Positions 7,323-45,541 of a stretch of DNA of 64,000 nt are shown piece by piece (position 1 is the first letter of the stretch; every line of letters begins with the position of its first letter). The DNA comes from Barthelona sp. PCE (Eukaryota). The position numbers and the translations under genes were made by a program. Below the pieces are notes generated by a model that saw only the letters and a list, made by a program, of their open reading frames with translations, was not told the DNA's origin and did no database searches. The DNA lies in the NCBI GenBank assembly GCA_040285745.1, contig JAUFOR010000008.1:1240001-1304000 (forward strand), read 5' to 3'.

Positions 7323-7976
7323 TTACTTCCTACGCTTCAGTTCGTTGGCCAACCAGTCAAAGCCCAAATAAATTGAACGAACATCATTCAATGCAGAGCA
7401 AGGTTGAGCAAACCAAGTTTGAGTGAGTTTGTCAAGCTCGACAACCTTAACAACTTCTCTGGGATCAAGAGCATCGGGGAGATCTTGCTTGTTGATGAGA
7501 AGCAACACAGTACATTCTGCCAAACGAGGATCGGACAAAGACTCATGTAATACACACTTGACACATCCTTCTTCACAACCGACACCACCACAGTTAAGAC
7601 GGTTGACATCAGCTGAGTCGATAACGAAGACTACGGCATCTGTATCATCATAATAGTAGTTCCAAAGGTTTCTAAATCTAAAAATTAGTTAGGGTCATAT
7701 TATTATCAGTACACAAATAACTTTGTTAAATGCTCTGGCTTAAGGTATTCCATACGTCTTTTGGCCACCAATATCGTAACAATTAATCTTGAGAGAACCG
7801 ATTTCCAGATCAGTTGCTGAAAACCCAACAGTAATTCTTGTGTCAATGCTAGATTCATCGACGTACTTGAGACGCTTGATGATTGCGGTCTTACCAGCAC
7901 TGTCCAGACCAATTAGAACGATTTTGGCTTCAATTCTCGATAATGCGTTCAAAACTCTTGAAATTAACTTTCCCAT
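7323..7976 (-). CDS. ARF/ARL-family small GTPase, 191 aa, two exons (7976-7756, 7677-7323)
   Basis: MG start, GLDSAGKT, DIGGQ, NKQD, CSA motifs; splicing restores GGQKTFRNLWNYYYDDTDAVVFVIDS. Confidence 0.92.
7678..7755 (-). other. Spliceosomal intron (78 nt) in the ARF/ARL gene
   Basis: GTATGG…CCCTAACTAATTTTTAG; removal joins the two ORF halves in frame. Confidence 0.9.
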
Positions 7977-8374
7977 TGCTTCTTTTGTTGCTGTTTAAGG
8001 CTAAGAAAATAAAAATATAAAGGATAACTCCGTGTTTAAAGGGAGAAACTATTCTGCAAAGCTGAGGTTACAGTTGGAAGCATTCGCACGGTGTCACACT
8101 CCTTTAATGGCTACTCAATGATGCTAAAACCATACTTAAGTCCTTCAACGCACTTCAACAAAGAGAATGGAATATACTAAACCATTGACATATTAGCACA
8201 ATAATTAACTGGTTAACCACATTTTACTTGCATCACAGTTATCAGTTGATTCTCAGAAATTCATAGTAAGGTGAAATTGTATTGTTTTCTCCTTTTCTTC
8301 TCATAGCGAAGTTTTAACGTTCTTTTTGGATAAATTTGATAAATACACGGCATGAAAGTTCTTTGATGCAAAAT

Positions 8375-10604
8375 ATTGTTTTTCTTTTACTGAGGTATAG
8401 CAGGCAGGGGTAAAGGTCGAGATGTACAGGGGCCTAGTTGGCGAGGAAGTCAAGGGGCAGAGGCTTAGTCATGAACGCTTCACGCTCAGGGCCAACTGAT
8501 ACGAAGTGTACCGGCACGCCAGTAAACTCTTCGATGAACTCAACGATATCCTTGGCAGATTGGGGGAGCAGATCGTACTGCCTTACATCGGCAACCTCTC
8601 CAGGGCCGGGCATAGTTGTGTAAATAGGCTTGGCATCAAATTGCTGTTGAGCCGAAAAAGGAACGTGGTCCAGAATTGTGCCATCAGGAAGCTCGTATGC
8701 TGTGCAAATCTTGATCTCCTTGAACTGACTGAGGACATCTAGCATCGTTAGCGCACAGATATTGGCGCCGGAAGTTGTGAGTGAGTGCTTGAGGGCAACA
8801 AGATCGAGCCATGTACAACGTCTGGGACGACCTGTGGTTGTACCGAACTCGTTTCCAACAACACGAATTGCATCAGCGGTCTCGGATTCAATCTCTGATT
8901 CTCCAACAAGAGGGCCTGCACCAACACGAACAGAGTATACCTTGCTTACGCCGAGGATGACGTCGAGTGAGTTGGGAAGAAGACCTGTGCTCTGGGGAAT
9001 ACCAAGAGTCGTTGTGTGTGATGATGTGCAGTAGGGAGATGTGGACCAATCAATGTCGAGAAAGAAACCATTGGCGAGCTCGACGAGGATGGAGTCACCG
9101 CGGTTACTGGCTTCACGGAGCATGGCCTCAGCGCCTTCGAAGACATAGGGCATGACGTATGATCTGAGTTCCATGAACTTGTCGAAAACCTGCTGAGGGT
9201 CGAAAGGTTCGAACTCGATCTTGTGCTCGGCAGCAAGAGCGCCAAGGACGACGTTCTTGTAGCGACAAACACGGAAGATCTTCTCCTGTATGTCAGCAAC
9301 AGGCATACAAAGATCACCCATACGCATGGCACGGGAACGGGCGCACTTGTCAGCGTATGCGGGGCCGATACCGGACTTGGTTGTACCGATCTTGTTCTTA
9401 CCTGTACGGCTAGCCTCGTTAATGCAGTCCTCAGTGATGTGCCAAGGCATGATGATGTGAGCACGAGAAGAGATCTTGAGCTGCTCGGGAGTACGCTCAA
9501 TACCCAGCTCGTTGCGGGCACGCTCGAGCTCCTTTACGAGCTGAGGCATGTAGATAGCCATTCCTGCACCCATAACAGAGATGATATCGTCATGGAAAAT
9601 TGTTGAGGGAAGTAGGTGAACGTCGAATGAGATAAGCTCGTCTCCCTTCATGATCTTGATTACGTGGCCTGCGTTGTGACCACCGTTAGCACGAACGGAA
9701 TATTTGACATGAGTAGTGATGTCGTAAGATGAACCCTTCTTGGAAGGTGAACGACCCATGGATGAAAGAAGGTCAACGAACTTTCCCTTGCCCTCGTCAC
9801 CGACTTGAGCGCCGAAAGCGACGATAGAACGGGCGTTGTAAAGCTTGGAGTCCATGGGAGTAATGGTAGTTGGATGGTAATGCATAAAGTTACTAAATGT
9901 GAGTTTTTCAGGTTGAGGAGCACACAACATACGAATGAAGTAATAAAACAAAAAGCATAATACTTGTAGAAAGTATATATTCATGGCAGGTGGTCCCCTG
10001 CAAATTGGGTAAAAAACGTTAACCCACGTGTACATCTTCGTATGTACCTTGCTCAGCCGTAAAATATACAAAAATATCTATAGATGCCAACAAAAATTCT
10101 TAAAAGAGAAGATAAGTTGCTAAGAATGAGGTTAAAAAAACTTTTTTTACCCTTTTGCGAACCCTTCTTTTTTAAAGTTGTGCTGTATCGCGTACTTGAT
10201 GCAGCGATAGTGTTGATTCATGTTCCAGGGTCATATCGTAGTCTTATGAAGAAAGCTCTCTTTTTTTCCGAATATTGTAAAATCTAATGCTTCTGTGCGT
10301 GTGGTTGACTGATCTTATCCTACCCTTGCTGTTTTTTGCACGCTTCTACCTATCTATGGTGAGGATAAATTTTTTGGTTCGTATAATCGTGTGTTGTCAA
10401 CCCTAGCTGAGGTGTAAATGTCATATCCAGGCTACAATGCGAAGGAAATATTCGTTTTGACAATGTGCGCCGAGATCCTTTTTCTCGATGATTGTGTGTT
10501 CTTAGTCGTGTTTTCAGTGGCTTTGAAGCTGTAATATGGCGTGTTGCCACCACAACAGCTCTAGGTGGCAAATGACGGTGCAATATGTAAAGCAGGCAAT
10601 TCAA
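8375..10604. repeat. Left arm of a ~2.23-kb inverted duplication
   Basis: Reverse complement of 13765-15994 (paired coordinates sum to 24369); mirrored ORF tracks. Confidence 0.97.
8434..9855 (-). CDS. purA: Adenylosuccinate synthetase, copy 1 (473 aa from MDSKLY)
   Basis: GAQVGDEGKGK, GGHNAGH, IGTTKSGIGPAYADK, EFGTTTGRPRR, SVGPER; start placed at the ATG just before the conserved domain. Confidence 0.95.
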   Translation of the reverse strand: MDSKLYNARSIVAFGAQVGDEGKGKFVDLLSSMGRSPSKKGSSYDITTHVKYSVRANGGHNAGHVIKIMKGDELISFDVHLLPSTIFHDDIISVMGAGMAIYMPQLVKELERARNELGIERTPEQLKISSRAHIIMPWHITEDCINEASRTGKNKIGTTKSGIGPAYADKCARSRAMRMGDLCMPVADIQEKIFRVCRYKNVVLGALAAEHKIEFEPFDPQQVFDKFMELRSYVMPYVFEGAEAMLREASNRGDSILVELANGFFLDIDWSTSPYCTSSHTTTLGIPQSTGLLPNSLDVILGVSKVYSVRVGAGPLVGESEIESETADAIRVVGNEFGTTTGRPRRCTWLDLVALKHSLTTSGANICALTMLDVLSQFKEIKICTAYELPDGTILDHVPFSAQQQFDAKPIYTTMPGPGEVADVRQYDLLPQSAKDIVEFIEEFTGVPVHFVSVGPEREAFMTKPLPLDFLAN

Positions 10605-10675
10605 ATGTTCTGTATTTCACAATTTACCCGCTTAAAATATTACTATGCCAACAATACATTGTCAAAAAACTAGTA

Positions 10676-11229
10676 TAGAAACAATAAAAATTATTCAAGA
10701 AAAGTTGAGGATCATTTTTCACTACATACACCAGATTTTAAGCATCTGCTACCCCCATACTCATCGTTCACTGCTGGTCCTGATCAGGAAGATCCTGCAA
10801 ATGATTTTGAACAGAGAATGGAAGAACGTACTTTATTTAATTCTTATACTGAAGTAGGTTTATTGACGTCGGGGAACGCTCACGTGGGAAGGCTCGCCTT
10901 CACGTGTAGAGGGTGTTTCGTCCGGGAAGTGGCCTAAAACCTTTTTTTTTTAAAACCGTATCGGGTCCTACGGACACCTACTACACATGACGGTTCGCTT
11001 CGTCCCCCTCCGCTGTTTACTACCTCAAGTATAAAGTCTGAAGGCTAGCGCCTGTATGTCACCATCACAATTTTTCGGTTTCCTATTTACTTATTTGTTC
11101 TATTTAGTAATTGAAATACTGCTATTTTCAGATGAATGGAATTCCAAACTATGGTAGCCCCGTATGCGGCACCATATCCGAACTTAGATCTCTGTTCCCG
11201 TTAACATGGACTTGACTGGAAGAAAATCA
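10676..11229. ncRNA. Candidate structured non-coding element, copy A (conserved flanks around a branched hairpin core at 10844-11034)
   Basis: Collinear similarity to 44666-45262 including a 31-nt identical block; no shared reading frame; self-complementary core. The repeat is directly visible, RNA function is inferred. Confidence 0.6.
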
Positions 11230-11259
11230 TTGGAATTGCATCTACTAAAATGTGTAAAT

Positions 11260-13437
11260 CTATATGACTGCTGTATTGTTCATCATTGCATGATAATTGG
11301 GCATATGATACTCAACGATGGACGCCTCTGCCATAAACGAAGGAAGGTGGAACCTTTCCACAGTGGGATTCGTTGATTCTGGGTCTTGCTCAACGTTGTA
11401 TGTTTTCAACACCATTGTCTTGGTTTCTTCTTCGTAAATAACTTCCTGAACAACGTTATTAGGCATATTTACGCTGTGAATATCGTTGCCAATATTTGGT
11501 AAAATAGTATTTGTAAAAAATCGCATTTCAATAACGCCATTAACAATGGATACCTTATTAATACCTTGATCTACTTGAATGTACGAATCACCTATGAAAT
11601 TAAAGAAACAGTTACCATCCACTTCATCAACATCTGAATATTTATATATCAAAACGGGTTCCAAAAAAATTCCTGTTGACCAATCTAAACAATGCATATA
11701 CTGTTCCTCACCATCATTATTGTATTTATATGTAACAAAGAGCTGGTGGTCAGCTGTATCTGTTAATGGATGATGACAGAAGACTACATTCGAAACATCA
11801 TCGCCATGATGAAAAGTGATGTGCTTTTGAACCTCAACATCATTATTATTGATCAGCAATTGTAAAAAATGTGTTGAATTAGTACAACTAACACACACAG
11901 AACTTCCAGTGACTGAAGGCTTGCAATCATTTATGTACTCATTTGGTGGAAGCTCCAAAACTTTTGTATTACCAAGATAACCTTGACAAACATTTTCATT
12001 ATACTCAATAAAAAATGGTAACCCAAGAACTAAGCTAACATAACTCAAAAAGCCATCATTTTCAAAAGGAGTTATTATTGGTTTTGATTCTGAGCCTTCC
12101 CAGTGTATTTTAACTATTTCTGGATCTGGTCTTGCATCACACTGTGCAATCATAAAGAAATGCTCTTCCTCAAATGGGTGCATCGATAGTTCTCTGTAAT
12201 TCTTTTCGAACATTAAACTATCGTTAGTCATAACGCTTTTATGTGTGACGATTCTTTTTTCTTTGAAGTAAAAGTAACACTGTCTTTTCATAGTGCTGTC
12301 TGTAAAATGTGCTGTACCATCATACATAACTCTGTGAGGCCAAAAATTTTGCAATCGAATCACCTCGTTATTGACATTTCTAAACTTTATAGGACCAAAA
12401 ACACCCGTTGCATTACAAGTTCCTAAAAACTGGCATTGTTCATTATGAAAAGAATTCGCCAAGTCAAGGTGTTTTATATTATCAAATTGAATATATTCAC
12501 TGCATAAATCACCAGTTGACGACTTAAGCTCCCCGTTTTCAATATGAACAACAGTACAAATAGAGCTATTATAGAAAAGCGCAGAAAATTCATCTTGTGT
12601 CAATGTGAACAAGGAAAAACAAGAACAGTAAGATATTTTCAACTCTACTAACTGTGGGAATCTTTCCAATAGGTCAACACGGTTTCGTTTACGGTCAAAA
12701 ATGATCAATTCTTCAAATCCTCTGCCAAATGAGGCAAAACAAACACATTCAGCATTGTCACATCCAATACAGCTTTGATTATGGACACCTTCTAGCTGTA
12801 CGATATCCGGCTCATGAGCCTCGTCCATATCATCTACGCAGAAATTGTAGTGGAATAACGAAAAACCATTTTCATAATTGCTCATTAATACATATTCAAT
12901 GGAACAATTGCTGTTGGTGGTGTAATGGTTGTATTCTCCAAGGCACCGGTACCGTTCTGTTAGAATATTGAGAATGTAACAATGAGTCGATTCTCCATTC
13001 TGGTGTTCTTCATCAACCTCTGCAATAGAAAAAAAAATGTGGTTCTCATCTAATGGAACAAATTCGCTCGATACATATTTTTGTAAATTATCCAAATCAT
13101 CAAAAGGGAAACGAATCTTTCTGTTTGTGTGTTCATCACTGTTAATTTCGTTGAAATACAGGATTTCAAGATCAGTTAATTGATTATTTTCGCTAAAATG
13201 CTGTTCAACGATCATATATCCTGCTCCAGCTTTTCGCTTGTAATAATACTGAAGTGATTCACACGTTTCTTCAACATATCCACAAAATTCTTCCCCATCA
13301 ACAGCATCAATGAGATTGTGTAAATGAGTGTCTTCTCTAGTTTTGACCATTCTAACACCCTGACCTTCAAAAATAATTTGCCCCTCGGGAAAGGCCCCGA
13401 TGATAAGGTCATCCTCGAATTTACGGATACGAGGCAT
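11260..13437 (-). CDS. Orphan AT-rich, beta-strand-like protein (725 aa)
   Basis: Long ATG-initiated ORF with no recognisable family motif. Confidence 0.85.
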   Translation of the reverse strand: MPRIRKFEDDLIIGAFPEGQIIFEGQGVRMVKTREDTHLHNLIDAVDGEEFCGYVEETCESLQYYYKRKAGAGYMIVEQHFSENNQLTDLEILYFNEINSDEHTNRKIRFPFDDLDNLQKYVSSEFVPLDENHIFFSIAEVDEEHQNGESTHCYILNILTERYRCLGEYNHYTTNSNCSIEYVLMSNYENGFSLFHYNFCVDDMDEAHEPDIVQLEGVHNQSCIGCDNAECVCFASFGRGFEELIIFDRKRNRVDLLERFPQLVELKISYCSCFSLFTLTQDEFSALFYNSSICTVVHIENGELKSSTGDLCSEYIQFDNIKHLDLANSFHNEQCQFLGTCNATGVFGPIKFRNVNNEVIRLQNFWPHRVMYDGTAHFTDSTMKRQCYFYFKEKRIVTHKSVMTNDSLMFEKNYRELSMHPFEEEHFFMIAQCDARPDPEIVKIHWEGSESKPIITPFENDGFLSYVSLVLGLPFFIEYNENVCQGYLGNTKVLELPPNEYINDCKPSVTGSSVCVSCTNSTHFLQLLINNNDVEVQKHITFHHGDDVSNVVFCHHPLTDTADHQLFVTYKYNNDGEEQYMHCLDWSTGIFLEPVLIYKYSDVDEVDGNCFFNFIGDSYIQVDQGINKVSIVNGVIEMRFFTNTILPNIGNDIHSVNMPNNVVQEVIYEEETKTMVLKTYNVEQDPESTNPTVERFHLPSFMAEASIVEYHMPNYHAMMNNTAVI

Positions 13438-13764
13438 ATAAAAGTAGTTTGCCGTGATGAAACAAGTGTAAAAAGAGATAGCATAGATTTGAGTTGATTG
13501 TATGGCATATTTCTAAAATGTTCAATTTTATGACAAATGAGAATCGTTTAGAAAGCCGTTGCAAATGTTTACTTTTTTGTACTCTCATCAATAAACTATA
13601 AATTTTTCTCTTTGCAATTTATTCCTTTTTGTCGTTTAAATATTAATAATTATTCGGTTAAATGCTCTTTTAACGCCTATCTAATGGAAATGTGGCTTGA
13701 TTTTTTTTTTTGCTAGCAAAAATGGTAATTAAATGTTTCATTCAAGAAAATTGAATTTTTTTGA

Positions 13765-15994
13765 TTGAATTGCCTGCTTTACATATTGCACCGTCATTTG
13801 CCACCTAGAGCTGTTGTGGTGGCAACACGCCATATTACAGCTTCAAAGCCACTGAAAACACGACTAAGAACACACAATCATCGAGAAAAAGGATCTCGGC
13901 GCACATTGTCAAAACGAATATTTCCTTCGCATTGTAGCCTGGATATGACATTTACACCTCAGCTAGGGTTGACAACACACGATTATACGAACCAAAAAAT
14001 TTATCCTCACCATAGACAGGCAGAAGCGTGCAAAAAACAGCAAGGGTAGGATAAGATCAGTCAACCACACGCACAGAAGCATTAGATTTTACAATATTCG
14101 GAAAAAAAGAGAGCTTTCTTCATAAGACTACGATATGACCCTGGAACATGAATCAACACTATCGCTGCATCAAGTACGCGACACAGCACAACTTTAAAAA
14201 AGAAGGGTTCGCAAAAGGGTAAAAAAAGTTTTTTTAACCTCATTCTTAGCAACTTATCTTCTCTTTTAAGAATTTTTGTTGGCATCTATAGATATTTTTG
14301 TATATTTTACGGCTGAGCAAGGTACATACGAAGATGTACACGTGGGTTAACGTTTTTTACCCAATTTGCAGGGGACCACCTGCCATGAATATATACTTTC
14401 TACAAGTATTATGCTTTTTGTTTTATTACTTCATTCGTATGTTGTGTGCTCCTCAACCTGAAAAACTCACATTTAGTAACTTTATGCATTACCATCCAAC
14501 TACCATTACTCCCATGGACTCCAAGCTTTACAACGCCCGTTCTATCGTCGCTTTCGGCGCTCAAGTCGGTGACGAGGGCAAGGGAAAGTTCGTTGACCTT
14601 CTTTCATCCATGGGTCGTTCACCTTCCAAGAAGGGTTCATCTTACGACATCACTACTCATGTCAAATATTCCGTTCGTGCTAACGGTGGTCACAACGCAG
14701 GCCACGTAATCAAGATCATGAAGGGAGACGAGCTTATCTCATTCGACGTTCACCTACTTCCCTCAACAATTTTCCATGACGATATCATCTCTGTTATGGG
14801 TGCAGGAATGGCTATCTACATGCCTCAGCTCGTAAAGGAGCTCGAGCGTGCCCGCAACGAGCTGGGTATTGAGCGTACTCCCGAGCAGCTCAAGATCTCT
14901 TCTCGTGCTCACATCATCATGCCTTGGCACATCACTGAGGACTGCATTAACGAGGCTAGCCGTACAGGTAAGAACAAGATCGGTACAACCAAGTCCGGTA
15001 TCGGCCCCGCATACGCTGACAAGTGCGCCCGTTCCCGTGCCATGCGTATGGGTGATCTTTGTATGCCTGTTGCTGACATACAGGAGAAGATCTTCCGTGT
15101 TTGTCGCTACAAGAACGTCGTCCTTGGCGCTCTTGCTGCCGAGCACAAGATCGAGTTCGAACCTTTCGACCCTCAGCAGGTTTTCGACAAGTTCATGGAA
15201 CTCAGATCATACGTCATGCCCTATGTCTTCGAAGGCGCTGAGGCCATGCTCCGTGAAGCCAGTAACCGCGGTGACTCCATCCTCGTCGAGCTCGCCAATG
15301 GTTTCTTTCTCGACATTGATTGGTCCACATCTCCCTACTGCACATCATCACACACAACGACTCTTGGTATTCCCCAGAGCACAGGTCTTCTTCCCAACTC
15401 ACTCGACGTCATCCTCGGCGTAAGCAAGGTATACTCTGTTCGTGTTGGTGCAGGCCCTCTTGTTGGAGAATCAGAGATTGAATCCGAGACCGCTGATGCA
15501 ATTCGTGTTGTTGGAAACGAGTTCGGTACAACCACAGGTCGTCCCAGACGTTGTACATGGCTCGATCTTGTTGCCCTCAAGCACTCACTCACAACTTCCG
15601 GCGCCAATATCTGTGCGCTAACGATGCTAGATGTCCTCAGTCAGTTCAAGGAGATCAAGATTTGCACAGCATACGAGCTTCCTGATGGCACAATTCTGGA
15701 CCACGTTCCTTTTTCGGCTCAACAGCAATTTGATGCCAAGCCTATTTACACAACTATGCCCGGCCCTGGAGAGGTTGCCGATGTAAGGCAGTACGATCTG
15801 CTCCCCCAATCTGCCAAGGATATCGTTGAGTTCATCGAAGAGTTTACTGGCGTGCCGGTACACTTCGTATCAGTTGGCCCTGAGCGTGAAGCGTTCATGA
15901 CTAAGCCTCTGCCCCTTGACTTCCTCGCCAACTAGGCCCCTGTACATCTCGACCTTTACCCCTGCCTGCTATACCTCAGTAAAAGAAAAACAAT
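13765..15994. repeat. Right arm of the ~2.23-kb inverted duplication
   Basis: Reverse complement of 8375-10604 with at least three substitutions (14017, 14021, 14182). Confidence 0.97.
14514..15935 (+). CDS. purA: Adenylosuccinate synthetase, copy 2
   Basis: Translation identical to copy 1. Confidence 0.95.
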   Translation: MDSKLYNARSIVAFGAQVGDEGKGKFVDLLSSMGRSPSKKGSSYDITTHVKYSVRANGGHNAGHVIKIMKGDELISFDVHLLPSTIFHDDIISVMGAGMAIYMPQLVKELERARNELGIERTPEQLKISSRAHIIMPWHITEDCINEASRTGKNKIGTTKSGIGPAYADKCARSRAMRMGDLCMPVADIQEKIFRVCRYKNVVLGALAAEHKIEFEPFDPQQVFDKFMELRSYVMPYVFEGAEAMLREASNRGDSILVELANGFFLDIDWSTSPYCTSSHTTTLGIPQSTGLLPNSLDVILGVSKVYSVRVGAGPLVGESEIESETADAIRVVGNEFGTTTGRPRRCTWLDLVALKHSLTTSGANICALTMLDVLSQFKEIKICTAYELPDGTILDHVPFSAQQQFDAKPIYTTMPGPGEVADVRQYDLLPQSAKDIVEFIEEFTGVPVHFVSVGPEREAFMTKPLPLDFLAN

Positions 15995-16157
15995 TTTGTT
16001 TCGCCTCTCCTCTCTTCATTGCTTATGTGCACGTATTATAGGGTGCACATATCTTGGCCTCAACTGTTTTTGAGAATACTCAGTTGATTGTAGTAAACTT
16101 GGATTTTGGGAATTACTCCTTTTCAACAACTTTCAACAACTTACTTTGTGTATAGAA

Positions 16158-16862
16158 ATGACTGAATCAAAAGCGTTTGGGTACGTGAACAATTTACAGA
16201 AGAGAATAGAGAACTTGGAGAAGAAACTCTTAAAGATTGAGTCAAACTCTTCTAAACCTCGCAGCCAACTGAATGCGGATCAAATCCAACAGATTGATGA
16301 CAAGCCAAGCATTGAAAGCAACAAAGCATTAATGGAACGCTTGTTTGTTAAAGCTAAAACTTTTGCCATTGCTGCTCAGGAGCAAATGGATCTATGTATT
16401 AAGGAGGAGCGCGAAATTGCAGCTGCTCAAGTGGAGGAAGCAATTGAAAACACTCATAATGAGGAGGCTGAAGATTTCCTCACTTTTGCTCAAATGATCA
16501 CTTTTGTACGGTTCTTGGAGAGTAATCCTGATCTTATTGGACTTCTTGAACGTGAACGTGAGATTTGGGGTATGCACGGTAGAGAGGTTCCTGATGTTAC
16601 TCCTCTTTATGATTTATCATTACTGCTTGGTTTACTTGATGGAGGCACTGAAGAAATAGCCAAATGTTACAGTGAATTGATTGCTTTTGCTAAAAACAAC
16701 AATGAGCTTATTATTTATGTCGAAACATCATCCATTGTGACTGAAGGTGTTCTTCCTGATGAACCAGAGCCAGAACCAGAACCGGAACCGGAAAGCAGAG
16801 TTAAATTCGGCACAATTCAAGGGGAAATGACTCTTCCAGAGATCACGTTTGGATTCAATTAG
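16158..16862 (+). CDS. Hypothetical protein with a Caprin-like N-terminal coiled coil and an (EP)n tract
   Basis: KRIENLEKKLLKIE…LNADQIQQI resembles the Caprin HR1 start; first ATG at 16158. Confidence 0.55.
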   Translation: MTESKAFGYVNNLQKRIENLEKKLLKIESNSSKPRSQLNADQIQQIDDKPSIESNKALMERLFVKAKTFAIAAQEQMDLCIKEEREIAAAQVEEAIENTHNEEAEDFLTFAQMITFVRFLESNPDLIGLLEREREIWGMHGREVPDVTPLYDLSLLLGLLDGGTEEIAKCYSELIAFAKNNNELIIYVETSSIVTEGVLPDEPEPEPEPEPESRVKFGTIQGEMTLPEITFGFN

Positions 16863-25032: not shown

Positions 25033-26692
25033 CTACACGGCATCACGGGCACGAGGACCACGCATCCTAGGACCACCTGACTTACGAGCCATAATGATCT
25101 GATCAACACTGAGCACAGTGGTGGCTGCATCGACAGCGAACTTGAAAGCCCACTTCTTAGCGAGGAGGTGATCGAAGATACGCTTCTCCATAACGTCAAC
25201 AAGACCATGTTCTTCGATATCGATACCAACTGCGGTCTCACCACGGATGTGAGCAGCGAGTAAGGAAGAAAGGATCTCAACGCTGGACATACCGGAGTTC
25301 TCAGAGAGAATCCTAGGAATGACCTGAAGAGCTTTACCAAAACCAGAGATTGCGTATTGAGCAAGACCAGGGGTCTTCTCACCAATCTCGGTAAGGAGCT
25401 TGGACAATTCCATGTCGACTGCACCAGCACCGGGGAGGAAGCCGGGATCGCGGGTAATTGCCTTAACAACGTTGATACCATCATCAATAGCACGGGAATA
25501 ATCGTTCAAGATTTCCTCGGTAGAACCACGGATGACAATAGAAGCCATACCACTAGTACCGTCCTGCTCAAAGACAGTAACGTTACGGCCACCAATATCC
25601 TGAACACGAACGCTGGTACAGTAACCGCACTGAGCGTCGGTGGGGATGTTGAGATCAGACAAGATGTTAGCGCGGACGACCTTGGCGACACGGCGCATAT
25701 CCCACTTGGAGGGGCACTTGAGGACCATAATATCGAATGCCTCACAGAAGTGAAGGGCGAGATCGGAGACGGTACCGTTGGTGATGATGACGTTGATTCC
25801 AGCATCCTTCATTTGGAGGATAGTCTTGCGGATAAGCTGCTCCTCACCCTCTGAGAAGTCCATGTACTCCTGAGCGGTGTTGACAACGACAGCACCCTTG
25901 GTCTCACCACGGTCGAGCTGCAGGGAGCAACCGAACATAGCGATCTTGGCGTTGACGACGCTGTCAATGGTTCCCATAGGGAAACGGTTAAGAACGAAAC
26001 CATTTACGAGTCTTGAAGATGAAATGGTAGCACCAGTGAGCTTAACTACACGAACGTTATCGACGTTGAACTTACGGATGTCCTTGGGCATGACACGAAG
26101 ACAAGCATCAACGACAAAGGGGCAGAGAATACCCTCAAGACCAGATTGCTTTGAAGCAATAACGGGGTTGATAACCTCAATGAGCTGATCTCTGTTGGTG
26201 ATATCCTCAACAGTGTGACAGACAAGGGTAGGGAGAATCTTCTCGAGCTCAGCGTAAGCAATCTTATAACCACTGATAATCTCAGAAACGTGGAGTCCAG
26301 ACTTGATCAGCTTGCCGGCCTCTTGAAGAAGCTCACCAGCAAAGATCATAGCGAAGTTAGTGCCATCACCAATTTCTTGCTCTTGGTTCTTAGCAGCGTC
26401 GATCAATAAACGGGGTGCGGGGTGGTCTACCTCTAATTCTTGGACCATTGTGGCAGCATCTGAAGTGATAAACAGCTTACCAGCGTGATTAATAATCATT
26501 TTGTTGCAGCCTAAATGTTAATTCATTTCTACACTGAAATTTGCGTTTCGACATACCGTTGGGACCAAGAGAGGTCATGATAATTTGTACAAACTCCTTC
26601 ACGGCGGTAATATTTCTCATGATAGCTTCATCGATACCTTGCAGGCTTTGGGTACCTTCCTTAAGCAACTGTGGTTGACCTCTGATACTCAT
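25033..26692 (-). CDS. CCT8: Chaperonin CCT/TRiC subunit theta, two exons (26692-26557, 26510-25033)
   Basis: Spliced SLGPNGCNKMIINHAGKLFITSDAAT, EIGDGTN, FNVDNVRVVK, PSKWDMRR, VDQIIMARKSGGP. Confidence 0.95.
26511..26556 (-). other. Spliceosomal intron (46 nt) in CCT8
   Basis: GTATGT…ATTAACATTTAG; removal restores the LGPNGxNKM motif. Confidence 0.92.
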
Positions 26693-26893
26693 GACTACTT
26701 AAAAGTCTACGAAAAAAAGAACAAGGTGGGAAATAGTTATGCGCCCATCGAAAACTCCAATTTCAAGCGATATAACAAAATTTTACTTAGAAACAGCCGT
26801 ATATGGGGTGTTTCAATGGAGAAACACGTGTCCGTTGTGAATGCGGACATTATACGAAAAAACCTGCCTTTGATCTTTTCCACCTTTATTTAA

Positions 26894-41355: not shown

Positions 41356-43740
41356 ATGTCCGTTATGACTCTTATTACCCTTTTACAATTTTCGATTGCT
41401 GACTTCTCAGCAAGCAGCCTCTGTAATCACCTTCGAGGCTGTTTAACAAACAATAACGATTACAAACCTAATATCCACAAGGTGCAGTGCATTAGCAACT
41501 CAGATCTTTGTTTGGATAAATTTTCTTCCCTATTTACCGACTGGGACGACTATGGTGATCTCGATGATGGCATTACACGCGAGATATACCTGTTTTTTGC
41601 TGCTAATTCAGATGAGTTAGTTCTTGCTCTGTTACCTTCTTTAGAAGTGGATTTTTTCAGTGGATTACCTCCTAACAATGAGGTTTTTGCTCGTATAATG
41701 CGAGAATTGGCCCTGATTCCGTACGGATCACACCCTACCTGCTTTCTTGGAAAAACTGAAATACCCTTTGACGATGTTCTTGAAAAAGCCAAGCCAATCA
41801 GCACATGTTGCATTGAATATTCTCAGCCACAGCGCTTTACACTGATAGATGACCCTTCTACCTCAATGGATATCTCTCAAGCGCTTATAACATCTACTAG
41901 TATCAAGCTAACAGTGCAGAGCACCGATTTTTACCGGTGTTGTTACCTCATTGCTTTCTGTCAGAAGAATCAGCGCTCCGTTACTAATCAAAACGATGTT
42001 TATGCAAAATTAGCCTCTGCCTTGCATAATAAGTGCTTTTCCAGCGTTAGCGAACTTAAAGCATGGAATATCAGCACATTCTGGGCAAAAAAAAAAAAAT
42101 TTCTTCACTCTGGGAGGTTTTGCATTCGTAATCAAGTTGCAATTATGCTTAATATATCTTGTGCCTATCTCTGCCTCGGTGATATCAGCCGCAATCAAGC
42201 TGTTGCTGATTTTTTGAAAGGCAATTTTAAATGCACGGAGTGGAATGTAAGCGTTCGCCCAAAGTTTTCTACCAATGTTTTGGAGCTGAAAATGAAGTTC
42301 CCTTTGTGCTCAAACAATTCCAACTTTTTGGATTATCTAGCAAGCAATGGTTGTTTTGATGACTACATTGTTACTGAATTTTCTGGCATTTTTCCGAAGA
42401 AGTTTTTAACTTGCAAAACATCATTTAGTCCCGAAAATCTTCTGAAATGGCAGAGAAATATCTTAAAGAATAGCTTTGATCAACGTTTGAAGCAGCTTTT
42501 TTGGGATAATACCTCTGCTGAGTGCCGTGAATTAATGAACAACTATTTCCTCCCTGAACACATTCGTTCAGCAAAACTTTCCGATATTACCATAGACTCA
42601 TCACACTTTCCATTTTTTCAAAACCATTCAATACGAAATGTTGTTCACTTCACTGAATGTATGGGAAATAAGGTTGCTGGTCAACTCGTGAAGTCTATCA
42701 ATATGGATGCTGTGAGTGTTATAAATCTCAGAGACAAAGACTTAAAGCTTCAATCATCCAACTCACAAAGCGTTGAACTCTGTGATATAGCTGAGTTCAA
42801 AGATGGACTGCTTTTCCTGCACATGGTTAAGAACATTAAAAAATGCAGGGAAGTCATTCCTCAAACAGCAAAAGTGATTAGCCTCTTTCAAACAGAGCCC
42901 ACCAGATTTCTTTCTGTGTTGAAGTCTGTACTGCTGACTGCAGGTGCCAGCAAAGTTGGTGGTTTTGATTTCGAGTTGATTGATGCGCTTGAGCTGAAGG
43001 ATATTCGATTTGTAGTCAGTCTTTTTGGATTAAGGACCGAACTCTCCACGGACTGTATATCTTTGTTGTTGACGCTGAACACTGCTTCTGGTGGCCTTGT
43101 CCATGTAACGCACTTGCCAACTCAGGAACAAGTCTACGTGTACGGTAGTGTTCCTTCAAGAACTGATGTTTTCCACTTCAGTCGTAGTCTAGATCATGTG
43201 GACAACTGGACAACTCTCAAGCAAGTTACGCTGATCTGCAGGCTTCTTTATGATTTCGATGTGTTTTCGTGTCCAAAGTACGGAAATTTGGAAGTGAGGG
43301 ATATTATGTATTACTCTGATGATATCATTAATGATGATGATGTGATTATGCTGCTTTTCTGTGTCCAGCTGCAGGGTAGGGAAGAACAGTACTATGTTCC
43401 ATTGTTTAAGCTGAAAGGTTACCATTTCGCATTCAACAATCACTCAATTCCATTGATTTCAACCAATTCGTTCAATGCAAGCTGCCAATCCTTGGCAGAA
43501 GCAGCAAAGACATCTTTTAAGGAGATGTATAAACAATCAACGGAGAATATTCAAGTAACTTATGCTGGTTATGTACCGCACGGGAAATGCCAACATTTTA
43601 CTGCGCTTGAACCGTTCAAGTTGCGCAGCGTGCGACCCTTATCTTGCGCATCTGCACATAAGAAGGCGAATAGACAGAACCGACGTACTAAACTACGTGC
43701 ATCAAAGTGTGCATCTCGTAGATCGATGCGATCTATGTGA
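41356..43740 (+). CDS. Diverged tandem paralog (794 aa) of the preceding gene
   Basis: LRDKD…VELCDIAE…LHMVKN…VIPQ, plus shared YYVPLF/QFIPFM and PFKL C-terminal motifs. Confidence 0.55.
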   Translation: MSVMTLITLLQFSIADFSASSLCNHLRGCLTNNNDYKPNIHKVQCISNSDLCLDKFSSLFTDWDDYGDLDDGITREIYLFFAANSDELVLALLPSLEVDFFSGLPPNNEVFARIMRELALIPYGSHPTCFLGKTEIPFDDVLEKAKPISTCCIEYSQPQRFTLIDDPSTSMDISQALITSTSIKLTVQSTDFYRCCYLIAFCQKNQRSVTNQNDVYAKLASALHNKCFSSVSELKAWNISTFWAKKKKFLHSGRFCIRNQVAIMLNISCAYLCLGDISRNQAVADFLKGNFKCTEWNVSVRPKFSTNVLELKMKFPLCSNNSNFLDYLASNGCFDDYIVTEFSGIFPKKFLTCKTSFSPENLLKWQRNILKNSFDQRLKQLFWDNTSAECRELMNNYFLPEHIRSAKLSDITIDSSHFPFFQNHSIRNVVHFTECMGNKVAGQLVKSINMDAVSVINLRDKDLKLQSSNSQSVELCDIAEFKDGLLFLHMVKNIKKCREVIPQTAKVISLFQTEPTRFLSVLKSVLLTAGASKVGGFDFELIDALELKDIRFVVSLFGLRTELSTDCISLLLTLNTASGGLVHVTHLPTQEQVYVYGSVPSRTDVFHFSRSLDHVDNWTTLKQVTLICRLLYDFDVFSCPKYGNLEVRDIMYYSDDIINDDDVIMLLFCVQLQGREEQYYVPLFKLKGYHFAFNNHSIPLISTNSFNASCQSLAEAAKTSFKEMYKQSTENIQVTYAGYVPHGKCQHFTALEPFKLRSVRPLSCASAHKKANRQNRRTKLRASKCASRRSMRSM

Positions 43741-43901
43741 TGGACTGTGAGGCAAGTAGTTTACTTCGTGGGTGTGATTAGGATTGTTTCCTTCCGCAAC
43801 TGTCTGTTTATAAGTAAATATTTATTTTTATATAAAACCTTTTTTCAAATAAGTACACTGAGAGGCACCCACATGGGTCTATAAGCTTTATTAAGCACAG
43901 A

Positions 43902-44366: not shown

Positions 44367-44665
44367 TGTACTTATAAGTTAAACAAACGAAAAAGGTTGA
44401 ATAATGTAGAAGAAGGAAAAAAAATTAAACTTCTTTGTAAAACGACATAATTTCTACATTCACGAGACAAAGCAACTCAATACGCCAGTTTCAACAGTGA
44501 AGATATGCAAAATGCAAACATATAGAGAAGAATTTCTTTAAGAGTATCCAAACAAGATTCTATTAACATGTAGACTCACAATTTCCCATATCATATGGAA
44601 AAAATGTCAAATTTACTGTTTAAAAAATCATTTAAAATGTTAAAGCATTTTAAACTCAATTTACT

Positions 44666-45262
44666 TAGAAACAGAATTTTTTTAAGCATGGGTAAAAAGT
44701 TTGAGGCGTTTTTCAAAGAATCTAGCAAAAAAAGAGCTGCAGAATCAGGAATTGGTATCGTTCACGAATGACCCTAATACGAAGATTCTGCAATTGATCT
44801 TCAAGAGATAATTTAACAGAACGTATGCAGGTGTATTTCAATTTCTCACCTCGTAGGAGGTTGTAAATTTACTTCGGAGTTAGACACTTGTACGGGAGTT
44901 GCGAGCTCCCTCGAGTGCTGTGCTTGCACTGAGAATTGTTCTAGAGCCCTTTTTTTTAAATAAAAGGGGAGAAAGAAATGATGTAAGTACTCACAGAGTA
45001 CAAGAGGGAAGATCGCGTGTCTACTCCTCAGTAGATTTACTCCTACGAAATAGCGTGTTATTCACAAGCGTGCCATTTTAAGGTTTCCTATTTATTTTAT
45101 TTGTACTATTTAGTAATTGAAATACTACTATTTTCAGATGTATGTTCCAAACTGTGAAGAAGGTACCCGTTTGCGGCACCATATCCGAACTTAGATCTCT
45201 GTAAAGAATCTGTTTATTCTCCCTTACTACCCGTTAACATGGATGAGACTGGAAGAAAATCA
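44666..45262. ncRNA. Candidate structured non-coding element, copy B (branched hairpin core at 44851-45048)
   Basis: Same flanking blocks as 10676-11229; TCGTAGGAG…CTCCTACGA outer stem with several nested helices. Confidence 0.6.
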
Positions 45263-45541
45263 ACAATTGAAACACTGTAATTTTTTTTCCAGATGTTAAA
45301 GTACACACTTCTCTGTTACCAAAAGTGTAAGTGAGAATGTTGAGTCAATTTTCTGACTAACTATCATCTTACTTAAAAGAAGTCAATAATTTAAGAACAG
45401 GTTTCCCTATAATCAAATATGCAACATTAAATGTAAAAAATCCTTTCTATTGTGGCACTTAATTCTTCAAATCAAGCAAAATTTTTACCAGTACAACAAA
45501 AGTTGGTGGAATACGTTTTATCACCCCCTTATCTTATTAAA

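What the first reader, a model, noticed from the sequence alone, without database searches (positions are those of the whole stretch)
10676..11229. Candidate new structured-RNA family: conserved flanks around a sequence-variable, structure-conserved core (copy A; partner at 44666-45262)
Seen in sequence: two loci 34 kb apart share ordered blocks. These are AAAAGTT(T)GAGG; ATCGTTCAC…GAAGATyCTGCAAwTGATyTT…AGAACGTA; GGTTTCCTATTTA…TATTTAGTAATTGAAATACTrCTATTTTCAGATG; a 31-nt identical block TGCGGCACCATATCCGAACTTAGATCTCTGT (11165-11195 = 45172-45202); and CCCGTTAACATGGA…GACTGGAAGAAAATCA. Indels between copies break the reading frames, so the similarity is not coding. The GC-richer ~190-nt middle is much less similar between copies yet folds the same way. 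In copy A, TTATACTGAAGTAG (10844) pairs with CTACCTCAAGTATAA (to 11034), GGGGAACG with CGTCCCC, and GTGTAGAGGGTGT with ACACCTACTACAC. There is also a side hairpin GAAGGCTCGCCTTC (10888-10901) and a central T10 run. Inference: a neutrally decaying repeat should not keep pairing while changing sequence. This suggests a multi-copy RNA gene with a constant frame and a variable payload, such as a small-RNA precursor or guide cassette. I do not recognise it as tRNA, snRNA, SRP, RNase P/MRP or a known ribozyme.
Basis: partly seen in the sequence, partly recalled or inferred. Interest (0 to 1): 0.88.

Follow-up and report, generated by a model that had tools for sequence, protein, structure and literature searches.

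The report
Paired non-coding elements with hairpin cores
Two 550-base non-coding stretches in a very compact protist genome share conserved flanks around unrelated, hairpin-forming middles; they may be copies of an unknown RNA gene or gene-boundary element, but transcription could not be tested.

Summary
Copy A (10700-11231) and copy B (44695-45264) share a 5' flank (~76% over 70 nt) and a 3' block (86% over 131 nt, including a 31-nt identical run). These surround cores (10844-11034; 44849-45050) that cannot be aligned. Each core is a long imperfect inverted repeat with a T8-10 run at its tip. Indels of 1, 3, 4 and 26 nt rule out a shared reading frame.

The window is Barthelona sp. PCE, a 10.2-Mb metamonad genome. 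The loci fill the 2nd and 3rd longest ORF-free gaps in the window.

The structured-RNA reading is only partly supported:
- B's hairpin is the strongest fold in the window; A's is modest.
- Arms are 75-77% complementary with no strand bias.
- The best-conserved block has no folding excess.
- Covariation in the cores is untestable.
- The only RNA-specific signal is one 9-bp long-range helix kept in both copies on the - strand (4 of 1000 shuffles).

There is no Rfam hit, tRNA, TIR/TSD, canonical intron common to both copies, or further copy in the window. No RNA run or whole genome was available.

A 79-nt arm of core A occurs elsewhere in another sequence context.

Best guess (0.35): a lineage-specific - strand non-coding RNA gene pair.

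The parts
10700..10843 (-). Copy A, weakly conserved flank (3' tail if the RNA is on the - strand); holds AAAAGTTGAGG, ATCGTTCAC, GAAGATCCTGCAAATGATTTT and AGAACGTA
   Evidence: Local alignment to B scores 47 against 17.0 +/- 2.5 in shuffles, 0 of 300; nhmmer E 8e-38
10800..10808 (-). Copy A, 3' strand of long-range helix P1 (pairs with 11223-11231); next to it, 10809-10817 pairs with 11189-11197 in A only
   Evidence: RNAalifold on the - strand, columns 10-18 with 487-495; common-helix test, 4 of 1000 shuffles
10844..11034 (.). Copy A core: imperfect inverted repeat, arms ~75% complementary, T10 at 10942-10951
   Evidence: The stretch 10863-10941 matches a contig of run X1 exactly, and that contig diverges at the T-run
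11070..11231 (-). Copy A strongly conserved block, with the 31-nt identical run at 11165-11195; AGTAAAT on the - strand at 11085-11091; T-rich stretch ending in ATG at 11132 on the + strand; P1 5' strand at 11223-11231
   Evidence: No folding excess: z -0.36 on -, -1.07 on +
44695..44848 (-). Copy B weakly conserved flank; P1 3' strand at 44793-44801
44849..45050 (.). Copy B core: imperfect inverted repeat, arms ~77% complementary, T8 at 44950-44957
   Evidence: z -5.22 on +, -6.06 on -; strongest outlier of about 2,100 sliding windows; arm score 53 against 20.6 +/- 4.0
45075..45264 (-). Copy B strongly conserved block, with the 31-nt run at 45172-45202, a 26-nt insertion relative to A at about 45203-45228, AATAAAT on the - strand, ATG at 45138 on the + strand, and P1 5' strand at 45256-45264
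   Evidence: No folding excess: z -0.87 on -, +0.68 on +

Best explanation
The two loci are paralogous copies of a lineage-specific non-coding RNA gene of Barthelona sp. PCE, about 480-570 nt long and most likely read from the - strand.

In this reading the RNA starts with a conserved, A/U-rich and largely single-stranded 160-190-nt domain. That domain would be a binding platform for protein or another RNA. It is followed by a long rod-like hairpin whose sequence is free to change, and it ends in a less conserved tail.

A 9-bp helix between the first nucleotides of the RNA and the start of the tail clamps the conserved domain and the hairpin together.

Shown: homology, non-coding character, hairpins at the same position, and the conserved helix.
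Inferred: transcription, strand, RNA ends and any function.
For: 1. The conserved unit is small and sits between unrelated genes: ADSS and a 725-aa ORF at A, TCTP and a 336-aa ORF at B. The flanking proteins show no similarity.
2. Conservation is patchy: 86-100% in the 3' block, ~76% in the 5' flank and none in the core. The non-homologous part coincides with the inverted-repeat boundaries.
3. Both cores form a long hairpin with a T/A run at the tip.
4. One long-range helix of 9 bp is kept at aligned columns in both copies, but only on the - strand. Three of its 9 pairs differ between copies and all stay paired (A-U to U-A, A-U to G-U, U-A to U-G). In a column-shuffle test, 4 of 1000 shuffles reach 9 bp. 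The best common helix on the + strand is 5 bp in that test. A wider scan of the flank columns finds none longer than 7 bp.
5. Folding z-scores are lower on the - strand in all four comparisons. Cores: A -2.78 vs -0.90, B -6.06 vs -5.22. Full length: A -2.03 vs -0.39, B -5.06 vs -2.45.
6. The genome is highly streamlined, with 83.5% of the window in long ORFs and a median gap of 142 nt. The loci occupy the 2nd and 3rd longest gaps (1224 and 1163 nt). The longest gap holds an ordinary two-exon GTPase gene.
Against: - No expression data could be obtained.
- The hairpin arms are only 75-77% complementary. They carry 10 and 14 non-wobble mismatches and 24-26 gap columns, and wobble-type mismatches are split evenly between strands. 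This is what a neutrally decaying DNA palindrome looks like.
- A's hairpin is not among the top 25 of about 2,100 windows.
- The best-conserved block has no folding excess on either strand.
- The helix test was chosen after looking at the data and rests on two sequences.
- A poly(A)-signal-like AGTAAAT (A) or AATAAAT (B) lies on the - strand between the conserved block and the hairpin. If used, it would cut the proposed RNA.
- In A the proposed 5' end is only 29 nt past the stop codon of the 725-aa ORF.
- There is no Rfam match.
Confidence: 0.35

Rival explanations
1. A DNA-level gene-boundary module, duplicated once. The conserved block carries promoter and poly(A) signals, and the inverted repeat acts as a cruciform, pause or terminator element that insulates neighbouring genes. 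No stable RNA product is involved.
For: - On the + strand the block is a T-rich stretch ending in ...TTTTCAG ATG, like the sequence upstream of known start codons in the window.
- Its 12-mer ATTTAGTAATTG recurs 39-50 nt upstream of the start of the gene at 38434. There are 3 matches in the window against 0.43 expected, two of them in the paralogues themselves.
- On the - strand it carries AGTAAAT or AATAAAT. By eye, 13 of 31 genes have (A/T)GTAAA or AATAAA within 40 nt after the stop codon.
- The block is unstructured as RNA.
- The hairpin shows no strand bias.
- Another strong hairpin sits at the convergent ends of two genes, 43660-43810, z -4.77.
Against: - The two copies stand in different gene contexts. 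A is downstream of a - strand ORF with no + strand gene after it. B has no - strand gene upstream. One shared boundary function is therefore hard to name.
- 160 nt at 86-100% identity is far more than other promoters or terminators in the window share with each other (nhmmer finds nothing else).
- It does not explain the - strand helix.
Confidence: 0.2
2. Two old copies of a dispersed repeat or non-autonomous mobile element. Its ends are conserved and its interior has been replaced by palindromic or captured DNA. It has no present function.
For: - A ~550-nt non-coding unit lies in two unrelated gene contexts.
- The 3' homology boundary is sharp, at ...GAAGAAAATCA.
- The interiors are unrelated.
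- 79 nt of A's core (10863-10941) is identical to part of a 196-nt contig of run X1. That contig continues differently exactly at the T-run, while nothing else of 8.5 kb around it is covered. That arm therefore exists elsewhere, probably at higher copy number.
- Arm divergence (~25%) resembles flank divergence.
Against: - No terminal inverted repeats or target-site duplications were seen at the homology boundaries on reading the sequence. The 9-bp complementary pair lies inside the homologous unit, not at its ends.
- No LTR-like TSD and no Helitron ends.
- Only two copies in 64 kb.
- Two unrelated palindromes inserted at exactly the same site would need a site-specific mechanism.
- Junk of 2 x 1.2 kb is unexpected in a 10.2-Mb genome (paper passages).
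- No hits in viral, phage or plasmid collections.
Confidence: 0.2
3. The hairpin is a 'zipper stem' inside a long spliceosomal intron of an unannotated + strand transcript, with a 5' splice site at AGAAC|GTA and a 3' splice site at TTTTCAG|ATG. The stem brings the splice sites together, so only pairing is conserved, not sequence.
For: - AGAAC|GTA is conserved in both copies (GTACTT in A, GTATGC in B), and TTTTCAG|ATG is identical in both.
- The two real introns in the window are short, 46 and 78 nt. A ~300-nt intron might therefore need a stem.
- From recall: long Giardia introns and some yeast introns have such stems.
Against: - Both real introns have GTATG(T/G) ... YTAAC ... TAG.
- The candidate has no YTAAC within about 40 nt of the CAG, and A's 5' site matches only GTA.
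- B has stops in all three frames just before the donor, so the upstream 'exon' is non-coding.
- The most conserved sequence would be intronic.
Confidence: 0.08
4. A small + strand protein-coding gene starts at the conserved ATG (11132; 45138) and contains a 26-nt intron (11162-11187; 45169-45194).
For: - Removing the same 26 nt, GT(A/T)TGC...GAACTTAG, opens a frame from the ATG through PVNMD(L/E)TGRKS in both copies.
- The +1 nt and +26 nt indels sum to 27, so the frame is restored.
- The context upstream of the ATG looks like a promoter.
Against: - The products differ in length (72 aa in A, 38 aa in B) and share only about 15 residues.
- A's frame runs antisense into the 725-aa ORF.
- The putative intron (25 of 26 nt identical) is better conserved than the 'exons'.
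- Its branch region is GAAC rather than YTAAC, and B's donor is GTTTGC.
- No protein in the 5.8-billion-sequence collection shares words with an ORF of the block. That search used a different, - strand frame.
Confidence: 0.07

Closest known systems
Hairpin-RNA (hpRNA / pri-miRNA-like) loci, where an inverted duplication of a target sequence is transcribed and diced
   Same: A long imperfect inverted repeat of about 190-200 nt sits inside a constant sequence frame. One arm of core A is identical over 79 nt to a sequence found in another context.
   Different: No small-RNA or expression data are available. The arms pair at only 75-77%. Whether the organism has Dicer or Argonaute was not established: one paper holds both search words and was not read.
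Giardia ncRNA genes (snoRNA, snRNA, RNase P/MRP) with an A/T-rich initiator and a conserved 12-nt 3' processing motif (PMC3510501, passages read)
   Same: Intergenic ncRNA genes in a compact metamonad genome that escape standard models, with a constant flanking signal around different RNAs.
   Different: The Giardia motif CCTTYNHTHAA is not enriched in the window (4 matches against 4.3 expected) and is absent from both loci. The conserved part here is 160 nt, not 12.
Non-autonomous DNA transposons, foldback elements and MITEs
   Same: Dispersed copies with conserved outer parts, a heterogeneous interior and an internal palindrome.
   Different: No TIRs at the homology ends and no TSDs were seen. 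Only two copies are in view. The palindromes differ completely between copies.
Intron 'zipper' stems (long introns of Giardia and budding yeast; recalled, not read here)
   Same: A stem conserved in position but not in sequence, lying between conserved GTA and CAG motifs.
   Different: The branch-site consensus of this organism (YTAAC) is missing, and no coding exons flank it.
RNase P RNA and RNase MRP RNA as a paralogous pair (analogy only)
   Same: Two RNAs in one genome share 5' and 3' core segments closed by a terminal helix, but have different middle domains.
   Different: Neither family matches in Rfam, even at E up to 10. A CR-I-like AAGUCC is present in A only. 86% identity over 131 nt is far more than P and MRP RNAs share (recalled).

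Membership tests
Any Rfam 15 family (including U1, U2, U4, U5, U6, U3, 5S, SRP, RNase P/MRP, telomerase RNA, snoRNAs) | Covariance-model score at or above the gathering threshold, or at least the same family matching both copies | tested here: not met
   There were 0 matches at gathering in the whole window. At E up to 10, the 14 sub-threshold matches (9.5-22.3 bits, apart from one 7.7-bit tmRNA match outside the element) never hit the same family in both copies.
tRNA / tmRNA | Cloverleaf detected by ARAGORN | tested here: not met
   0 genes in the window
MITE / DNA transposon | Terminal inverted repeats at the ends of the homologous unit | tested here: not met
   The ends (AAAAGTTGAGG... and ...GAAGAAAATCA) are not inverted copies of each other. 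The 9-bp complementary pair lies internally, because homology continues about 100 nt beyond it on one side.
MITE / DNA transposon / LTR | Target-site duplication flanking the unit | tested here: not met
   The flanking 4-10 nt differ at both copies for every boundary tried, on reading the sequence.
MITE / repeat family | Many copies in the genome | not testable with these tools
   The whole genome is not held. There are only 2 copies in the 64 kb.
Spliceosomal intron of this organism | GTATG(T/G) 5' site, YTAAC branch site 5-11 nt before TAG/CAG (consensus from the 2 real introns) | tested here: not met
   No candidate on either strand has all three signals in both copies.
Protein-coding gene | A reading frame kept between the paralogues | tested here: not met
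   Indels of 1, 3, 4 and 26 nt occur and stops lie in all frames. Only a contrived 26-nt-intron model keeps a frame, and the products are dissimilar.
Structured RNA (general) | Folding energy below shuffled controls | tested here: inconclusive
   Core B z -5.2 and -6.1; core A -0.9 and -2.8; 3' block -1.07 to +0.68; full length A -0.39 and -2.03, B -2.45 and -5.06.
Structured RNA (general) | Compensatory base changes | tested here: inconclusive
   The cores are unalignable. One 9-bp helix has 1 double and 2 wobble changes on the - strand, and 4 of 1000 shuffles reach 9 bp. Only two sequences are available.
hpRNA / miRNA-like locus | Small RNAs from the hairpin arms; Dicer and Argonaute present | not testable with these tools
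   No RNA run is listed and no genome is held.
Giardia-type ncRNA gene | 12-nt 3' processing motif CCTTYNHTHAA downstream of the RNA | tested here: not met
   4 matches in the window against 4.3 expected, none in the loci.

The most novel reading that the evidence does not exclude
The loci are cassettes of a constant-frame, variable-hairpin system. A conserved promoter or processing frame expresses a long hairpin whose arm has been copied from another genomic or invading sequence. In core A, 79 nt are identical to a sequence that continues differently in run X1. The hairpin would then yield guide small RNAs against that sequence. This would be an RNAi-type 'captured target' defence or regulatory system in a deep-branching free-living metamonad.
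Probability: 0.07. Interest if true: 0.8.

Novelty: new member of a known kind. Interest (0 to 1): 0.4.

Why it matters
Barthelona sp. PCE is reported to have the smallest genome known for a free-living eukaryote (10.2 Mbp; passage of PMC11316075). A search of the paper library for 'Barthelona' together with 'snRNA' found nothing.

In such a streamlined genome, two 1.2-kb gene-free gaps holding the same conserved 550-nt unit are likely to hold something selected.

If it is an RNA gene, it would be a first lineage-specific ncRNA family for the barthelonid/skoliomonad clade. It would also be a handle on how RNAs are made in relatives of Giardia.

If it is only a decayed repeat, it is ordinary.

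Either way, the finding corrects the idea that structure conservation has been shown: it has not.

Tried and rejected
Searches that returned nothing or could not run:
- Expression: the look-up of sequencing runs listed no RNA holder.
- The single run listed (X1) covers only 79 nt of the 8.5 kb laid.
- Whole genome not held.
- Exact-word scans found nothing. The 25-mer of the 31-nt block gave 0 in metagenome contigs and 0 in viral contigs. A 21-mer of the block gave 0 in viral contigs. A 32-mer of core A gave 0 in metagenome, prokaryote-genome and viral contigs. The X1 loose-end 30-mer gave 0 in the window and in prokaryote genomes.
- blastn of core A against phages and plasmids: no match.
- Protein search with the 51-aa - strand ORF of block B: no candidate.

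Neighbouring proteins:
- The 725-aa ORF next to copy A is not a recognisable nuclease or transposase. It has 0 Pfam families even at E up to 5 and 0 PDB matches. A Fanzor/TnpB-plus-guide-RNA reading was therefore dropped.
- The flanking proteins of A and B are not paralogues.

Resemblances recalled from memory and rejected because Rfam gave no support and the motif order or spacing is wrong:
- U6 (ACAGAGAU on the - strand)
- U2 (CUUAGAUC..UCUGUUC on the + strand; GUAGUA in B only)
- 5S rRNA
- U3 boxes
- U5 loop plus Sm-like site
- RNase P/MRP CR-I

Other readings rejected:
- Telomerase RNA: the block has only a 7-nt match (ACCATAT) to the complement of the reported telomere repeat TATATGGTCT, too short for a template.
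- Point centromere or mating-type-like cassettes: two copies lie 34 kb apart and the cores have no ORFs.
- Solo LTR (TG...CA ends but no TSD) and Helitron (no TC/CTRR ends).
- The bacterial-type promoter/terminator scan was uninformative.
- Gapless inverted-repeat search does not list the cores because of their indels.

Full report
**What the window is**

The 64 kb is eukaryotic and very compact.
- Thirty ORFs of 250 aa or more, plus TCTP, cover 83.5% of it. The median gap between them is 142 nt.
- The standard genetic code is used. Stop codons among 31 ORFs are TAA 14, TAG 13 and TGA 4.
- Pfam finds ordinary eukaryotic genes: CCT subunits, CK2-beta, condensin subunit 2, a ciliary CCDC113/96 protein, a RecQ-type helicase and an ABC transporter.
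- The window's own spliced CCT-theta protein is named in the protein collection as a protein of Barthelona sp. PCE, on a contig of 2,170,504 bases.
- I read passages of the genome paper PMC11316075. They describe a 10.2-Mbp genome, said to be the smallest known for a free-living eukaryote, assembled from Nanopore reads and polished with Illumina, with poly(A)-selected RNA-seq.
- Two real introns in the window give the local splice consensus. CCT-theta has GTATGT...AATTAACATTTAG at 26511-26556, 46 nt. An Arl-type GTPase has GTATGG...CCCTAACTAATTTTTAG at 7678-7755, 78 nt.

- The 31-nt run 11165-11195 equals 45172-45202.
- BLASTN supports the 3' block: 86% over 131 nt (E 7e-37), plus 91% over 33 nt.
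- BLASTN misses the 5' flank, but a local alignment recovers it. The score is 47 against 17.0 +/- 2.5, with 0 of 300 shuffles reaching it; identity is ~76% over 70 nt.
- The cores are not alignable. The score is 22 against 16.8 +/- 2.1 (7 of 300), and the only shared piece is T8AAA at the hairpin tip.
- In the alignment, homology fades out just before each inverted repeat begins and resumes just after it ends. The non-homologous segment is therefore the hairpin itself: 10844-11034 in A and 44849-45050 in B.
- nhmmer profiles of both flanks find only these two copies in the window.
- The flanking genes are unrelated. The duplicated unit is thus only about 550 nt.

**It is not coding**
- The copies differ by indels of 1, 3, 4 and 26 nt inside the conserved block.
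- Conserved nucleotides are read in different frames in A and B.
- B has stop codons in all three + frames just before the core.
- I found one frame-preserving model: a start at the conserved ATG and removal of the same 26 nt in both copies. It gives products of 72 and 38 aa that share only about 15 residues, and its 'intron' would be better conserved than its exons. I give it 0.07.

**How good is the structure evidence?**
- Core B is a very strong hairpin: z -5.22 on +, -6.06 on -, with 0 of 200 shuffles as stable. It is the top outlier of about 2,100 sliding 220-nt windows.
- Core A is modest: z -0.90 on + (34 of 200 shuffles) and -2.78 on - (1 of 200). It is not among the top 25 windows.
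- As an inverted repeat, A is still unlikely by chance. The arm score is 32 against 19.3 +/- 3.6 (3 of 1000). B scores 53 against 20.6 +/- 4.0 (0 of 1000). Among 278 control windows the five highest scores are 34, 35, 36, 42 and 47, and the 47 is copy B itself.
- The arms are only 75% (A) and 77% (B) complementary, with 24 and 26 gap columns.
- Mismatches that would be G-U on the + strand against G-U on the - strand number 4:3 and 2:2. Other mismatches number 10 and 14.
- G-U counts in the two strand folds are 8 against 9 and 5 against 4.
- This symmetry is what a decaying DNA palindrome gives. It does not show selection on one RNA strand.
- Because the cores cannot be aligned, 'pairing kept while sequence changed' cannot be scored as covariation.
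- The best-conserved 3' block has no folding excess: z -0.36 and -0.87 on the - strand, -1.07 and +0.68 on the + strand.

**One RNA-specific signal**
- RNAalifold on the - strand predicts a 9-bp helix between the outer edge of the 3' block and the inner part of the 5' flank. In A it joins 11231-11223 to 10808-10800; in B it joins 45264-45256 to 44801-44793.
- Three of the nine pairs differ between the copies and all stay paired: A-U to U-A, A-U to G-U and U-A to U-G.
- On the + strand the two wobble pairs would be A-C mismatches, and the longest helix common to both copies is 5 bp in that test; a wider scan of the flank columns finds none longer than 7 bp.
- Shuffling alignment columns reaches 9 bp in 4 of 1000 trials.
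- The folding z-scores are also lower on the - strand in all four comparisons.
- This is suggestive. However, it was found post hoc and rests on two sequences.

**Signals that point elsewhere**
- On the + strand the block is a T-rich stretch ending ...TTTTCAG ATG, like the sequence before known start codons here. Its 12-mer ATTTAGTAATTG recurs upstream of the gene starting at 38434.
- On the - strand the block ends with AGTAAAT (A) or AATAAAT (B). By eye, 13 of 31 genes carry (A/T)GTAAA or AATAAA within 40 nt after the stop. This could be a poly(A) signal lying between block and hairpin.
- A third strong hairpin lies at the convergent ends of two genes (43660-43810, z -4.77). Long hairpins may therefore be a general gene-boundary feature.
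- No candidate intron on either strand has the local 5' site, YTAAC branch and 3' site in both copies.

**An unexpected lead**
- The only public run offered (X1, kept as contigs) held 0.08 of the sampled words of copy A.
- Laid on 8000-16500, it covers nothing except 10863-10941. These 79 nt are identical and lie in a 196-nt contig of depth 4.56. The contig diverges exactly where the T10 run begins.
- The left arm of core A therefore exists in another sequence context, at an abundance that the neighbouring single-copy genes do not reach in that run.
- Exact words from the arm and from the diverging part are absent from the metagenome, prokaryote-genome, viral, phage and plasmid collections.
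- This fits either repeated or captured DNA in the core, or a hairpin copied from a target.

**Known families**
- Rfam gives nothing at gathering. At E up to 10 it gives only chance-level matches that never agree between the copies.
- ARAGORN finds no tRNA.
- The Giardia ncRNA 3' motif (PMC3510501, passages read) is not enriched in the window and is absent from both loci.
- No TIR, TSD, LTR or Helitron hallmarks were seen.
- The 725-aa ORF next to copy A has no Pfam or PDB relative.

**Verdict**

The element is real, non-coding and unassigned.
- I put 0.35 on a lineage-specific - strand ncRNA gene pair: a conserved single-stranded domain plus a fast-evolving rod, clamped by a 9-bp helix.
- I put 0.20 on a DNA-level gene-boundary module.
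- I put 0.20 on a decayed dispersed repeat.
- I put 0.08 on a stem-bearing intron and 0.07 on a small spliced gene.

The guide-cassette idea stays open at about 0.07.

Noticed in passing
window 8372-10604 and 13765-15997: A perfect (100%) 2233-nt inverted repeat. Each arm carries a complete adenylosuccinate synthetase gene. The arms flank a 3160-nt spacer that holds copy A and the 725-aa ORF. The inner repeat boundary lies about 95 nt from the start of the conserved unit (10700). This could be a real invertible segment or recent inverted duplication, or an assembly or polishing artefact.
   Followed up: partly
window 10863-10941 (run X1): A 196-nt contig of run X1 matches these 79 nt exactly and then continues with unrelated sequence from the first T of the T10 run. 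Nothing else of 8000-16500 is covered. The origin of that sequence is unknown.
   Followed up: partly
window 43660-43810: A long imperfect hairpin (fold of 43600-43860: -83.7 kcal/mol, z -4.77) straddles the stop codon of the 794-aa ORF, between it and the convergent TCTP gene. It is the second strongest fold in the window.
   Followed up: partly
window 7323-7994 (- strand): The longest ORF-free gap holds a two-exon Arl/Arf-type GTPase gene with a 78-nt intron at 7678-7755 (GTATGG...CTAAC...TAG). The family was recognised by eye and not scanned against Pfam.
   Followed up: partly
window 26762-26796 and 44640-44674: A 35-nt motif (74% identical; both end in TTTACTTAGAAACAG) lies upstream of two - strand housekeeping genes, CCT-theta and TCTP. 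It may be a shared promoter element. It marks the outer edge of copy B's weak homology.
   Followed up: no
window 45293-45395: A possible unannotated first exon of the 336-aa membrane-protein gene. An ATG at 45293 is followed by GTAAGT...CTGACTAAC...AG, only 30 nt past the end of copy B.
   Followed up: no
window 8434-10035 / 14334-15935: Apart from one 36%-identical plant-labelled entry (P0002), the closest relatives of the adenylosuccinate synthetase are only 39-43% identical. The named ones are mostly Planctomycetota/Phycisphaerae. This suggests either fast evolution or lateral gene transfer.
   Followed up: no
window, 40 nt after stop codons: (A/T)GTAAA or AATAAA follows the stop codon within 40 nt in 13 of 31 ORFs by eye. 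It resembles the Giardia AGTRAA poly(A) signal (recalled).
   Followed up: no
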